Source of the DNA: Tubulanus polymorphus
Taxonomy: Eukaryota > Animalia > Nemertea
Assembly: GCF_964204645.1 (NCBI RefSeq)
Contig: NC_134025.1
Location: 4,464,001-4,528,000 of the forward strand
Direction: 5' to 3'
Length of the DNA: 64,000 nucleotides
Part shown: positions 39,155 to 55,962 of the stretch, piece after piece
Layout: each line of letters begins with the position of its first letter
Numbering within the stretch: position 1 is the stretch's first letter
The notes under the pieces: generated by a model
Databases searched by the model: none
Seen by the model: only the letters and a program-made list of their open reading frames with translations
Told to the model about the DNA's origin: nothing
Program-made: the position numbers and the translations under genes

Positions 39155-42100
39155 TTAATCAGGAGATTTAAAATCACTTTCTCCGTATAAGGCAGTTGAA
39201 AATGATGAATAATCGAGTGCACCAGGTGCCGCGTCGCGGCCGCTATACGGAGCCATTCGTTGGATACAGTATTCAGCCTGGTCTGGTGGTAACTCTCGAC
39301 GCAGGATCTCAGCAGTAATGTGCGTCTGCAAGGAAATTTAATAACATGAAAAATCAATCGTATTCAAAATAGGAAAGAACTTCAAATCTACCGATTGAAT
39401 TGCAAATTAAAACATGACTGAATTAGATAAGTTTTCTAAATACCTTATCTCCGGCAAGAATTCTAAATGATTGCATGATTTGTTCAGCTGAGTCAGTGTC
39501 TGTCATTTCTCTTGTCATGAAGTCGAAGAAGGCATCAAATGATACAAATCCGGTGTTATTAGCATCGACGATAGCCATAATACGCTGGAAGTCAGCATCA
39601 CCCTGAATAGAAAATCGAAATTTACTTTGTTACAAAAAATGATTGTCACGAAATACTGTTTGATGAGAGTTTGCAGGATGCCATCTAATTAAGCATGGAG
39701 TATGATCAAAACTTAATTCGCATTAGTTGATAATAACATACCAGTTGATCATCACAAATATATCCAAGACTGACAAGACACTGTTTGAATTCTTTAGGAT
39801 CGAGTCGGCGAGAGCGATTCTTGTCAAAATGATTGAAGCTTGTTCGTAATTCAACCATTTGATCTTCAGTGATGCCCTTTGAGTCTCGTGTCAAAATCTG
39901 TGATAAATAGTTCGTTCATTTAGAGAAAACTTGCTATTTCATTGCAGCCTTCAGCGAGATACTGCTTTCAAGATGATCACTAAACATCTTCAATCACTTG
40001 AAGTTATATATAAATTGAATTTACCATGTTCTCCACTTCATTGCTGTTAAGCGCTATGGAGGTTAACAACTGCTCCCAACGAACTCGCAAAGTCTGGAAA
40101 AAATGAAGCAAAATTAATGTTCCACAAATCCTTCAGAACGTCTACTAACAAATCCTCTGCCCATGTCACATATTTCAAGCGTACAATATGACGCAGTTAG
40201 TCCACGCACGCTGAACATTAGTACGGAACTGATGGATAGGAATCCGCAGATTGAAATATTTGAACTCCTTACACTTCCAATGTTTACCACCTTCCAGCTA
40301 ATCAATTTGCTATTGAACTCCCGGTAGACATATCTGACGGGACTGCTGTACGATGAGTAGCTGTGTAAAGGAGCAATACTGAGAGTAATGGAGATCAGAT
40401 TTTATGTAATTGTCTAGAGAACATGGACTGAAAGCGAGTGTGTTCAACCCGTATTTCAACTGTAGAATTGAACACATTATCCCTTCTATCAGTCAAGTGC
40501 TCTATTCGGCTATAAATACATCGAAACTGATTTCAATAAATTACTTAACAACTAACTTTTTACCTTAATATACGCGATGAAAGACTTCAAAGGCAACTGA
40601 ACAGTTAGCTATGAAAGCGGAACTGAATGACCTATTTATACATAGAAATATAGGACAAATCATACCTCCATAGTGTAGGGAGTGTGACGGTTTTCAAATA
40701 TCATCGCTTCTTGAATTTCTTGATTATATCGCTCCAGTTCATCCATGTTCGGCTTGAGAGCATTAGCCTTAACTTGACATGCATTGAGTTCTTTCAGTTC
40801 ACCTTCCAGTGGGCCCTTCTGCATACCTGCAGCCATTACTTGTTCGTTAATACATTTGAGCCATTCTCCGACTGCGTTAGCTGTGCGGGCGAACTGTTTT
40901 CGAAGGCGTTCATTATTCTCCTGTCGAAGTGTAGCATCGAATTTCTGAGCCAAGTGATCTAACCGCTCGAGTCTATCAATTAAAACAATAAATAAACACA
41001 CAAACTCTAAATATATACATACATATGCTGTAACAGGTAAAATGTTTATTTACCTCTGTAATTCTGAGAGGAGCCATTCTTCGAAACCTTTCTCTGCACG
41101 TTCAAGTCCTTTCCATGCATTGGAAATATCCTTCAAAACAGAAAATGATTGCATAACTTCTGAAAACCTGACAAGCAACATAGAGACAATTTTCATTTAA
41201 CAACCAACTCACCCCAACCATCTTTCCTTCAGTTGGCAGGTAAACGGGCCTATTACTAAGTCGCAGCCTAGTTTGTAATGCGTTAAATGTTGTTTCTAGA
41301 TTGACTTTTTCTTCCAGTTTTGGTGGTTTTTGTTTGCGTCTGTATTCACGAAATTCATCCAGTTTGTCTCGTGTTCCCGGTAGCGTGTTGTCAGTTTGCC
41401 GGTTTTCTAACCAAGGTGTCGTCCTCATTATCCATTCCAATAGCTGAACAAAATCATCAAATTATCGTTAAAAAACTCATTTGAACTTTGACCTTTGCAA
41501 AAGATGCATCGATACTTACATCACTGGCCATTCTTTCATAGTCTTCCATTAATTTTTCTTTTTCTTGATTTACTTTTAATACTTTACAAATACGATTAGC
41601 AGCAGTTTTAGCCTGAAATATTGATAGAAATTTCATATAAAGGGTCATGGAAATTCACAAAGACCTGGCTTAATCAAATACAGGAAAATCTTTCATATTC
41701 TAGTTTCCATCAATTCTTTCACTGCGAGTACACATTCTGGTTCGAAAATTAATGCAACAGCCCGAGGGTGTAGTTTTCAATAACCCACCTTTACGCATAA
41801 AGAAAGCCCCAGGAGACTATTGATTTACTTTCAATATGAGGGAGAGTTTGAGTAAAATATGACAGGAAATGAGAAATACGAACCTGTTGAGCTCCTGAGA
41901 ACGCATGATAATAAGCAGATACGTAGGTCATAACAGATTTCTCATCAGGTTTCGGAGAATTGACGATATCTATAAAAGAAAGCCATCGATAAGAAAGAGC
42001 ATCAAGAAGAAGATGTGAAAGAATAATTGCGATATAATCAATGAATATATAAACCTTCAGCATCCAACATCCGTGGGATGTCGAGGTGTTTTTCAGCGAC

Positions 42101-54100: not shown

Positions 54101-55962
54101 TGAGAGATAATCCAAAGGAGATCAAGTTCATACAGTTTCCACTAAGATCGTCAAGCCTTACCTTCAACAGAAATGTCTTGAATTGCAAATCTCAAGATGA
54201 TTGTCCAGATCATACCCAATGTCGTCTTAAGATTACCATCCACAATTTCTATAATTGAAAATATTTACACGTATATAACTTGTAGATTAAATCTTTAGAT
54301 GGTTTGATAAGACCAGGAATAGCTTCGTGTTATTTTCATTGAGTTAACAAAAGTTGTGATTATGGTTGAAAGGATCAATCAAGGCTCAAAGGATAAATCT
54401 CAATTATGGGTAAATAGATATTATATTATCAAACATTCATTTGATTCAATTTTTCCAAAAATTACCAATCCAGACCCAGTGCAGATGTAATGACAGGATG
54501 GTGGGCAATGGGTAGATATTTCAGTACTACTGAGTACAATCTTGCTAGTTTTTCTAGAATCATTTATACACAAATGCTTCACTTTTGCAGCTAATATTCC
54601 AGACGAAGTAATGTGCACATACACATAAATGAGAGGTTGAGGCTACAGAGGCAGATTACTGGATCCAGAAGGGAATAGTTGGCTACAAATGGGCCAAAAG
54701 CCGAATTTCCAAATATTTTTTCAGCACTGATTTGATACTTATACATGTATGTTTTTAGTAAATCCTTGATTTAACACTCAGTAATCCGATACTATCTAAT
54801 CCATATATAAACTGAGTTGATTTTTTACATTTCCTTGTCTCGTTCTTCATTTTTGATAAACCCACCTTCTGCACAGATGGACACAAGTCTAACTCCTTTG
54901 CTTTTGCTGAAATCCAGCGCTTTGTTTATGTTCGAGATTTTGTGGAATCTCAAAGTTCCCCTTTCTGGGCGCGGCAGAGTCTCCCCCGAAATGACCTCCA
55001 AGAGAAGCATCAATTGTAATCCATCCCTCAAATCCTCATCAATCGTGGTGATTTGGACTCCCATCTTACACAAATGTGAGTTACACCATGCAGTAAAGGT
55101 CTAAAAGATCAGACAGATAAACTCTTAAAAATTATGACTTATTACTTATATACAACTAAACAACTTGTTGATGCTACAATAAGAAGGCGAAAGTTGTTCA
55201 AAGCTTATTAATTTTGGTTCATGGAAATTAGATGAATTTTATTTGATCTATTACACCTTCTAGGCTTCAATCAGAAACTTCAGATTAGGTTTACAGTTAC
55301 AACCAGGACCAAATTTATCTCAATTCGAATTCAATTTGAAACCTTATTGAAGGATATCCAAAAAGTCTTCACTGAAAGGTGTTAAATGAAGAAAAGCAAC
55401 TCCATGATTTGAAAGTTTAACAATATGTTGCTATGCCGACATATTTTTAAACTTTCAAATCATGGAGTCTCCCTTCAATCATGAACCCCTTTCAATAAAG
55501 ACTTTTTGGATATCCTTCAATACAGTTTAAAGTGGATTAAAAACGATGTTTTAGGTCAGCTGCCAATGCATTCTGGTCCCAATAAGACTTTTATCAGATA
55601 TGTACCACCACAACTGACTGAGCTAGGCCACCCGGAATGCTCTCAAGTCAGGTCGAAATAGACATTACTAACGCCACCAAAGAACCTATGAGTTAACCAC
55701 CCTTAACCTTCTCATCAGTTTTTGACATTTGGGAAAGTAGAAGTAACTTCTGGTATAAAGAAAATGTCAAAATTATAAAGAATTTTCATTGTGGTATTAC
55801 ACTGAATGAGTGTCGATAAAACGGAAAGATGAGGGAAGAGTATACCTTTTTCTGCTGTCTTTCCCAAGCCGGGTCAAGGAGACCGTCCCTGTCCCACTCT
55901 TCCTCCTGCTGTATGTACTCATCATTTTCGTACCCGTCATCATACCCGTCCATTTCACTCAT
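39155..55962 (-). CDS. ACTN: Alpha-actinin paralog lacking spectrin repeats 2-3 (ABD-SR1-SR4-EF hands, ~678 aa using the intact exon set)
   Basis: Exons 55846-55962 ([20 protein letters not shown]), 47690-47924 ([12 protein letters not shown]), 46986-47072, 44916-45003, 43511-43589, 42055-42136, 41884-41969, 41520-41612, 41213-41443, 41054-41130, 40666-40972, 40025-40093, 39742-39897, 39444-39602, 39155-39325; all phase-consistent, 2037 nt with no internal stop. Functional status unknown. Confidence 0.88.
46002..46783 (+). mobile_element. Probable non-autonomous Helentron/HINE-like element (second copy at ~53179-53959)
   Basis: caagatggccgcc cores and a 3' end acggacg...aatagctcgctggtcccaagtgggctaataa typical of such elements; boundaries approximate. 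Confidence 0.35.
48169..48346. mobile_element. Fold-back MITE in alpha-actinin intron 1 (duplicate at 55345-55522)
   Basis: tattgaaggatatccaaaaagtctt ... aagactttttggatatccttcaata plus an internal gactccatgatttgaaagttta / taaactttcaaatcatggagtc pair. Confidence 0.75.
48593..55766. repeat. Tandem duplication unit B: duplicated alpha-actinin exons 2-8 plus truncated exon 9
   Basis: Exons (minus) 54866-55100, 54162-54248, 52093-52180, 50688-50766, 49274-49355, 49103-49188, 48769-48831 (net 30-nt in-frame deletion), 48593-48692 (cut at the junction with intron-1 sequence at 48590). Confidence 0.95.
55345..55522. mobile_element. Fold-back MITE, copy in duplication unit B
   Basis: Same TIRs as 48169-48346. 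Confidence 0.75.

What the first reader, a model, noticed from the sequence alone, without database searches (positions are those of the whole stretch)
41344..55766. Intragenic 7.2-kb duplication that can encode a double actin-binding-domain alpha-actinin
Seen: exons 2-8 occur twice with intact splice sites and frames. Exon 8B (ends 48769) and exon 7B (ends 49103) finish in phase 0 and exon 2A (starts 47924) begins in phase 0, so skipping the broken exon 9B yields ABD-ABD-SR1-SR4-EF (~918 aa). Using exon 9B reads into intron sequence to a TAG at 48510-48512, giving an ABD-only product; skipping unit B gives the 678-aa form. Known: tandem ABDs define fimbrin/plastin-type monomeric bundlers. Inference: an alpha-actinin-derived four-CH-domain crosslinker may be emerging.
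Basis: partly seen in the sequence, partly recalled or inferred. Interest (0 to 1): 0.78.

Follow-up and report, generated by a model that had tools for sequence, protein, structure and literature searches.

The report
Doubled exons in shortened alpha-actinin copy
A ribbon worm's second, shortened copy of the actin-crosslinker gene alpha-actinin carries a 7.2-kb tandem repeat of its actin-binding exons, but the extra set has picked up changes at otherwise fixed residues, so it is likely a young, decaying duplicate rather than a new two-headed crosslinker.

Summary
41344-48590 (A) and 48593-55766 (B) repeat exons 2-8 and part of exon 9 at about 99% identity, with intact splice sites. The 918, 678 and 339-aa products compute as stated. 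The 918-aa form is identical to an existing RefSeq model (XP_074663070.1, Tubulanus polymorphus).

First, the host is a second alpha-actinin that diverged from a full-length paralog (896 aa) and lost spectrin repeats 2-3 by an in-frame deletion; its changes avoid conserved columns, so it was under some selection. Second, all 8 amino-acid substitutions between the units, plus a 10-residue deletion in the neck, lie in B and hit conserved columns at the chance rate.

Best reading: a real, young duplication whose upstream actin-binding domain is decaying (0.55). A working four-CH crosslinker (0.12), haplotype misassembly (0.15) and a wholly dying paralog (0.18) remain open. I could not test the junction on the source reads, the B-to-A splice, or dimer formation. 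Neither architecture occurred in any other of 279 homologs checked. Not a fimbrin.

The parts
55846..55962 (-). Exon 1 (ATG at 55962), single copy
   Evidence: X5 and X6 contigs run from exon 2 into this sequence (loose ends at 47926)
48593..55766 (-). Unit B (upstream duplicate): most of intron 1, exons 2B-8B, first 100 nt of exon 9B
54866..55100 (-). Exon 2B (CH1) with R50C (55070), I104S (54907), G115C (54875 and 54873)
52093..52180 (-). Exon 4B with N167D (52121). Exon 3B is 54162-54248, 5B 50688-50766, 6B 49274-49355, 7B 49103-49188
48769..48831 (-). Exon 8B: in-frame 30-nt deletion that removes 10 neck residues, plus M280I; ends in phase 0
48593..48692 (-). Truncated exon 9B (T297M, D307E, T309M): acceptor intact, donor lost
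48591..48592 (.). Duplication junction: 2 letters that belong to neither side; no gap and no homology between the two ends
48510..48524 (-). Weak in-frame cryptic donor at 48524 and the read-through stop TAG at 48512-48510
   Evidence: donor score 3.6 against 4.0-9.9 for the gene's own 14 donors, leave-one-out
41344..48590 (-). Unit A (downstream copy): exons 2A 47690-47924, 3A 46986-47072, 4A 44916-45003, 5A 43511-43589, 6A 42055-42136, 7A 41884-41969, 8A 41520-41612; exon 9A is 41213-41443
   Evidence: joints in X4, X5 and X6
40666..40972 (-). Exon 11, a fused exon: start of SR2 joined at 40939/40938 to the end of SR3 (221 codons of the paralog missing, 1-nt microhomology), then a second 15-nt deletion, then SR4
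   Evidence: (loose ends at 40939; 15 gaps)
39155..41130 (-). Exons 10 and 12-15 (end of SR1, end of SR4, EF hands). Stop at 39157-39155; the paralog's C-terminal leucine is replaced and extended by four residues
36816..38648 (-). 3' UTR and flank of the gene, repeated at 60854-64000 (about 90%)
60854..64000 (-). Second copy of the actinin 3' UTR and flank with an extra 1.25 kb (62384-63630); inferred to be the tail of the full-length paralog lying head-to-tail beyond the window
   Evidence: which gene it belongs to was not tested

Best explanation
The window holds a second alpha-actinin gene that lacks spectrin repeats 2-3 and carries a 7.2-kb tandem repeat of exons 2-9, and the upstream repeat is likely a real, young duplicate whose actin-binding domain is likely decaying. 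Shown: the repeat, the splice phases, the rod deletion against the full-length paralog, and the one-sided damage in B. Inferred history: (1) the whole gene was duplicated, probably head-to-tail; (2) the new copy lost SR2-SR3 in frame and evolved fast under relaxed but real selection; (3) a break-and-rejoin event put a second set of exons 2-9 in front. Inferred working: the pre-mRNA meets B first and B's splice sites are intact, so transcripts probably include B. Those that use the exon 9B acceptor would mostly stop at 48512 and be degraded or give an ABD-only fragment. Those that skip 9B, or use the weak donor at 48524, would give a protein with a crippled first ABD, an intact second ABD, a two-repeat rod and EF hands. 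Such a protein would act as a short alpha-actinin with a passenger domain, not as a fimbrin-like bundler.
For: All 8 amino-acid-changing codons between A and B are derived in B (two-sided sign test 0.008). The one synonymous site has B's letter in both transcript types of X5, so it is A-derived. R50, I104, G115, N167 and M280 are kept in 105-106 of 106 full-length homologs, and B's changes hit columns that are at least 95% conserved 6 of 8 times against 5.3 expected by chance: no filter on B. The deletion removes neck residues, the stretch bound by the partner's CaM domain (PMC8431150 and PMC4550062, passages). Host gene: sister to P0123 at 100/100 with branch lengths 0.15 against 0. Of 60 differences in 674 columns, 48 are window-derived, and only 15 of those 48 fall on conserved columns against 25.9 expected (P=0.001). 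The coding indels in the gene body keep the frame. Window-type exon 2, 9 and 13 pieces with 1-3 other letters stand in X5 contigs, and the exon 2 piece is spliced to exon 3. For a real repeat: no gap, a 2-letter junction in mid-exon, and indels of 30 and 36 nt between the units; false duplications are most often separated by a gap (PMC9516828, passages). Youth: A-B intron difference is 0.8% (50 of 6355 sites), and X1's laid pieces carry A's letter at 15 and B's at 7 of the 22 of 60 sites that could be read.
Against: B has more coding changes than neutrality predicts for one branch (9 against 3.6, P about 0.01 after allowing for CpG), which could mean selection on B. R50 is human ACTN1 R46, where R46Q raises actin affinity (PMC8431150, passage), so not every B change need be a loss. 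B's deletion keeps the frame and its splice sites are unchanged. B's serine at 104 also stands in X2 and in a spliced X5 contig; that X5 piece has exactly 3 other letters where B differs from A at exactly 3 sites, although only one of the three places is printed. So B-type exon 2 may be transcribed, or may be an ordinary allele. RefSeq lists two double-ABD isoforms. Conservation of A rests on few events (P of at most 1 change = 0.12), and the window-versus-paralog pN/pS estimate of about 0.7 is not distinguishable from 1 (P=0.26).
Confidence: 0.55

Rival explanations
1. The whole short-rod paralog is becoming a pseudogene. The duplication is one more loss-of-function lesion (default splicing into exon 9B hits a premature stop), and neither A nor B is now under selection.
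For: pN/pS against the paralog is about 0.7 and not distinguishable from 1. A also has changes at invariant residues (M89L, M126T, E260K, N276K, Q517M, F534L) and has lost the paralog's C-terminal end. The 9B acceptor is intact and the 339-aa product ends far upstream of many introns. The AlphaFold2 model breaks the helix at the deletion joint (residues 644-647, pLDDT under 50). A single SR1:SR4 pair of human ACTN1 was mechanically unstable (PMC11271494, passage).
Against: No stop codon in a 678-codon frame despite 60 amino-acid differences; body indels are in frame; changes avoid conserved columns (P=0.001); A and B differ one-sidedly.
Confidence: 0.18
2. The tandem repeat is an assembly error that joined two haplotypes of the short gene (false exon gain). 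A and B are alleles, and the RefSeq 918-aa model is an artefact.
For: A-B divergence (0.8% in introns) is of a size plausible for alleles. B's letter at 47731 occurs in X2 and X5, and X1 pieces mix A and B letters. False exon gains are a described error class (PMC9516828, passages).
Against: No gap; the join lies in mid-exon with 2 letters from neither side and no shared repeat. B as an allele would have to carry 8 changes and a neck deletion while A carries none.
Confidence: 0.15
3. The double-ABD protein is made and selected. Loss of SR2-SR3 weakened the dimer, and the extra ABD restores two actin-binding heads in one chain (or four in a dimer), working like fimbrin/plastin with one retuned ABD.
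For: Three in-frame routes join B to A (918, 897, 974 aa). RefSeq predicts two such isoforms. B's coding changes exceed one-branch neutrality, and one is at a site where a human variant raises affinity. The neck deletion is in frame and shortens the linker between the ABDs, which the model draws as a helix running into the next CH1 (residues 262-292). Plastin's two ABDs differ greatly in affinity (PMC10046292, passage). A spliced X5 piece may be B-type exon 2.
Against: B's changes fall on conserved columns at the chance rate (6 of 8) and include I104S and G115C, each at a column with 106 of 106 identity. The duplication is young (0.8%). No other of the 279 homologs checked has this layout.
Confidence: 0.12

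Closest known systems
Full-length Tubulanus polymorphus alpha-actinin XP_074652757.1 (P0123) and metazoan four-repeat alpha-actinins (e.g. human ACTN2, PDB 4D1E)
   Same: Tandem-CH ABD, neck, SR1, SR4 and EF hands; 90% identity to P0123 over shared columns; sister to it in the tree.
   Different: 221 codons (SR2-SR3) and 5 more residues are missing, the C-terminus is changed, and the ABD exons are repeated.
Two-repeat alpha-actinins: S. pombe Ain1 and Entamoeba histolytica alpha-actinin-2 (PDB 6SL2)
   Same: ABD, two spectrin repeats and EF hands. These proteins dimerise and bundle actin (PMC4824898 and PMC11271494, passages).
   Different: Theirs is described as the ancestral state. Here it is a secondary deletion from a four-repeat animal gene, with leftover SR2 and SR3 residues between SR1 and SR4 and a predicted break in the connecting helix.
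Fimbrin/plastin
   Same: Two ABDs (four CH domains) in one chain, if B is spliced to A.
   Different: Plastin is a monomer with N-terminal EF hands and two closely packed ABDs (PMC10046292, passage). Here the EF hands are C-terminal, a spectrin rod remains, and the best fimbrin match is E 1.6e-20 against 3e-298 for alpha-actinin.
RefSeq models XP_074663070.1 and XP_074663071.1
   Different: They are automatic predictions named 'alpha-actinin-like'. Their transcript support could not be seen.

Membership tests
alpha-actinin (animal type) | N-terminal ABD of two CH domains | tested here: met
   Pfam CH: 4 stretches in P0121, 2 in P0123
alpha-actinin (animal type) | Rod of four spectrin repeats | tested here: not met
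   2 Spectrin stretches against 4 in P0123; 7 residues between the SR1-side and SR4 anchors against 228
alpha-actinin (animal type) | Intact neck after the ABD | tested here: met
   Met for unit A (two substitutions, E260K and N276K); not met for B, which lacks 10 residues
alpha-actinin (animal type) | C-terminal calmodulin-like EF-hand domain | tested here: met
   PF00036, PF13499, PF08726
alpha-actinin (animal type) | Descent from alpha-actinin | tested here: met
   Sister to P0123 at 100/100, with Lineus next at 97/96, in an 18-row tree
alpha-actinin (animal type) | Antiparallel dimer through the rod | not tested
   The complex-prediction queue was full
fimbrin/plastin | Two ABDs in tandem in one chain | tested here: inconclusive
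   True of the splice model and the RefSeq prediction; the transcript is not shown
fimbrin/plastin | N-terminal EF-hand regulatory domain | tested here: not met
   EF hands lie at 773-910 of 918; definition from PMC10046292
fimbrin/plastin | Monomer whose two ABDs both bind F-actin | not testable with these tools
   Needs biochemistry; B's ABD has four changes at columns 99-100% conserved
two-repeat alpha-actinins (fungi, Entamoeba) | Rod of two spectrin repeats | tested here: met
two-repeat alpha-actinins (fungi, Entamoeba) | Two repeats as the primary, pre-duplication state | tested here: not met
   Derived by deletion: remnants of SR2 and SR3 flank the joint and the parent gene is in the same species
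false duplication (assembly error) | Gap between the copies | tested here: not met
   No N in the window
false duplication (assembly error) | Haploid read depth and unsupported junction in the source reads | not testable with these tools
   Only contigs of public runs could be laid

The most novel reading that the evidence does not exclude
An animal is caught rebuilding alpha-actinin in two steps: a duplicate gene halves its rod back to the two-repeat plan of fungi and amoebae, then doubles its actin-binding domain, giving a selected single-chain four-CH crosslinker that converges on fimbrin.
Probability: 0.12. Interest if true: 0.75.

Novelty: new variant of a known kind. Interest (0 to 1): 0.36.

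Why it matters
[quoted passage not shown] A ribbon-worm duplicate with an SR1-SR4 rod that still shows purifying signal is a natural test of whether an animal rod can dimerise without SR2-SR3, and of what filament spacing it gives. That, more than the exon repeat, is the durable point. If the double-ABD form proved functional, it would show how fimbrin-like bivalent crosslinkers can arise by one exon-block duplication. If B is decaying, as the evidence suggests, it is an ordinary young duplication, and the RefSeq 918-aa model should be read with caution.

Tried and rejected
No whole genome is held for the window, so the paralog's DNA and position could not be read. No RNA holder was listed on record; X4, X5 and X6 are treated as RNA only because their contigs join across the introns.

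Junction test on window:47600-49450 with X1, X2, X3 and X5 (4 of the 6 runs): inconclusive. No listed piece bridges 48590/48593 (232 pieces were not shown). The joint table lists only three joints, all in X5 (exon 9-8, 8-7 with the undeleted exon 8, 7-6), and none from 8B or 7B to 2A. X1 has no cover at 48654-48715. Contigs show presence, not absence, so none of this is used as evidence. One X1 contig ends exactly at 48590, a hint of a fork at the breakpoint that I could not resolve.

X1 piece depths inside the unit (median 42, 10 pieces) and outside it or paralog-specific (median 41, 9 values) look alike, but the tool states that depth is no copy number; not used. X5 depth over exon 11 is fully explained by the full-length transcript, so expression of the deleted exon itself is not shown. 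X4 shows only full-length-type letters at the exon sites listed.

Dimer prediction for two copies of residues 498-918 was never run: the queue was full, which leaves dimer formation open. The single-sequence AlphaFold2 model was useless (pLDDT 39.9). The alignment-based model (59 rows chosen by me, with no rows covering B's ABD; pLDDT 70, pTM 0.29) gives secondary structure only; Foldseek shows about 13 A rmsd to solved ABDs, so domain packing was not read from it.

Earlier-findings look-ups returned nothing. Paper searches listed no paper on this gene, on a nemertean actinin duplicate or on a double-ABD alpha-actinin; the library lacks most subscription journals. Fimbrin membership was rejected. 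An ancestral two-repeat rod was rejected.
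Full report
Observation. The window (no N, 36% G+C) holds a minus-strand alpha-actinin gene. Self-BLAST shows the direct repeat 41344-48590 (A) against 48593-55766 (B); a global alignment gives 60 substitutions and indels of 36, 30, 5, 1, 1 and 1 nt. With corrected boundaries all introns are GT-AG, exons 7 and 8 end in phase 0 and exon 2 starts in phase 0. The splice models give 918 aa (8B to 2A), 897 aa (7B to 2A), 678 aa (B skipped) and 339 aa with a stop at 48512-48510. 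The join runs from mid-exon 9 through two letters of neither side into intron 1, 80 nt after its donor. A weak in-frame donor at 48524 (score 3.6; the gene's own 14 donors score 4.0-9.9 leave-one-out) adds a 974-aa route.

What the gene is. Searching with exon 11 returned a 100% match named alpha-actinin-like [Tubulanus polymorphus]. Its cluster holds XP_074663070.1 (918 aa) and XP_074663071.1 (912 aa); a separate cluster holds a full-length 896-aa gene (P0123) on a contig of the same length. Pfam finds 4 CH and 2 spectrin stretches in it against 2 and 4 in P0123. Contigs of X4, X5 and X6 join across the introns and mostly carry other letters that match P0123's residues. X6 has loose ends on both sides of 40939; the upstream one translates to the paralog's SR3 end. 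So the window gene is a second copy from which 221 codons were cut in frame with one shared letter, followed by a 15-nt deletion. X1, which covers the introns, holds both types (for example 34.9 of 72.5 at 40757). In an 18-row tree the window copy is sister to P0123 (100/100) with branch lengths 0.15 against 0. The 3' UTR and flank (36816-38648) recur at 60854-64000 at about 90%, next to a 1.5-kb element with terminal inverted repeats. I infer a head-to-tail gene duplication with the parent just outside the window; this is untested.

Selection on the short gene. It differs from P0123 at 60 of 674 columns; outgroups side with P0123 at 48, with the window at 10, and tie at 2 (106 full-length homologs, of the 124 proteins held at that point). 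Only 15 of the 48 fall on columns at least 95% conserved, against 25.9 expected (P=0.001). A rough pN/pS from the six exon pieces with usable counts is 0.7, not distinguishable from 1. Some invariant residues have changed, and the C-terminus is altered (that the lost end is a PDZ-binding motif is recalled, from no call). Window-type pieces of exons 2, 9 and 13 stand in X5 contigs at depth 12-15 with 1-3 other letters. Reading: relaxed but not absent selection, and at least partial transcription.

A against B. Ten coding substitutions: nine change 8 codons (R50C, I104S, G115C, N167D, M280I, T297M, D307E, T309M), all derived in B by comparison with P0123; one is silent and is A-derived by X5. 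B also lacks 10 neck residues. Sign test 0.008. Six of the 8 hit conserved columns, against 5.3 expected by chance. Against this reading: B's 9 exceed the 3.6 expected for one neutral branch (P about 0.01), and A's single change is only weakly low (P=0.12). R50 is human ACTN1 R46, where R46Q increases actin binding (PMC8431150). B's serine 104 appears in X2 and in a spliced X5 piece whose 3 other letters equal the number of A/B sites it spans; only one of the three places is printed. X1 pieces carry A's letter at 15 and B's at 7 of the 22 of 60 sites that could be read, as expected of an unduplicated haplotype of similar age or of collapsed bubbles. The repeat is therefore young.

Mechanism. 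Shown: structure, phases, deletion, one-sided damage. Inferred: exon 1 lies 745 nt from 2B and 7921 nt from 2A and B's splice sites are intact, so transcripts probably run through B. They then either enter 9B and stop early, or skip it and give damaged ABD, intact ABD, short rod and EF hands. The alignment-based AlphaFold2 model folds SR1 and SR4 as separate helical units with a low-confidence break at the deletion joint (644-647) and does not fix domain packing (pTM 0.29). Two-repeat rods can dimerise in S. pombe and Entamoeba (PMC4824898, PMC11271494), whereas one human SR1:SR4 pair alone was unstable (PMC11271494). Whether this rod dimerises is open.

Real or artefact. No gap, a non-homologous mid-exon join and sizeable indels favour a real event; false duplications are most often gap-separated (PMC9516828). 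The public runs did not settle it (see Tried and rejected). I put artefact at 0.15.

Comparison and novelty. It descends from alpha-actinin but fails the four-repeat criterion. It is not a fimbrin: EF hands are C-terminal and a rod is kept. Of 283 proteins fetched (the best 120 listed from each of three searches that found 220, 4286 and 1023 hits, plus cluster members), 279 had both rod anchors. Only P0001 and P0121 have the short spacing (7 residues; next shortest 88; P0123 228) or two ABDs. This is a sample, not a census. Searches listed no paper on such a gene.

Papers. I saw keyword passages only of PMC11271494, PMC4824898, PMC8431150, PMC4550062, PMC9516828 and PMC10046292; all others were seen as search listings. 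No supplements were opened. That RefSeq usually needs transcript evidence to list alternative isoforms is recalled and was not checked.

Verdict. New variant of a known kind, interest 0.36. The exon repeat is probably a young duplicate in decay. The short-rod paralog that hosts it is the more durable oddity. The convergent four-CH crosslinker stays possible at 0.12.

Noticed in passing
window 60854-64000 against 36816-38648: A second copy of the actinin 3' UTR and flank (about 90%, same strand, extra 1.25 kb at 62384-63630) suggests another actinin gene head-to-tail just beyond the window.
   Followed up: partly
window 59353-60861: An element of about 1.5 kb with terminal inverted repeats ends at the edge of the repeated 3' flank; by eye no 8-nt target duplication. 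It may have caused the whole-gene duplication.
   Followed up: no
window 41812-45003 (exons 4-7): Divergence from the full-length paralog is patchy: 0-1 amino-acid differences per exon in exons 3-7 and 10, against 12 of 78 in exon 2, 18 of 103 in exon 11 and 11 of 52 in exon 13. This may reflect gene conversion or tighter constraint on CH2.
   Followed up: no
window 39835-39842: A compensated one-base loss and gain in exon 13 relative to the full-length transcript keeps the frame.
   Followed up: partly
window 55070: B's R50C is a CpG change at the position of human ACTN1 R46, a macrothrombocytopenia site.
   Followed up: partly
window 48462-48590: One X1 contig ends exactly at the duplication breakpoint, an unresolved hint of a fork there.
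   Followed up: partly
window 48155-48360, 55331-55536, 57845-58008, 46028-46999: Palindromic MITE-like elements and high-depth repeats in intron 1, intron 3 and the upstream region.
   Followed up: no
window 35856-36008: Short AAT-type tandem repeat.
   Followed up: no
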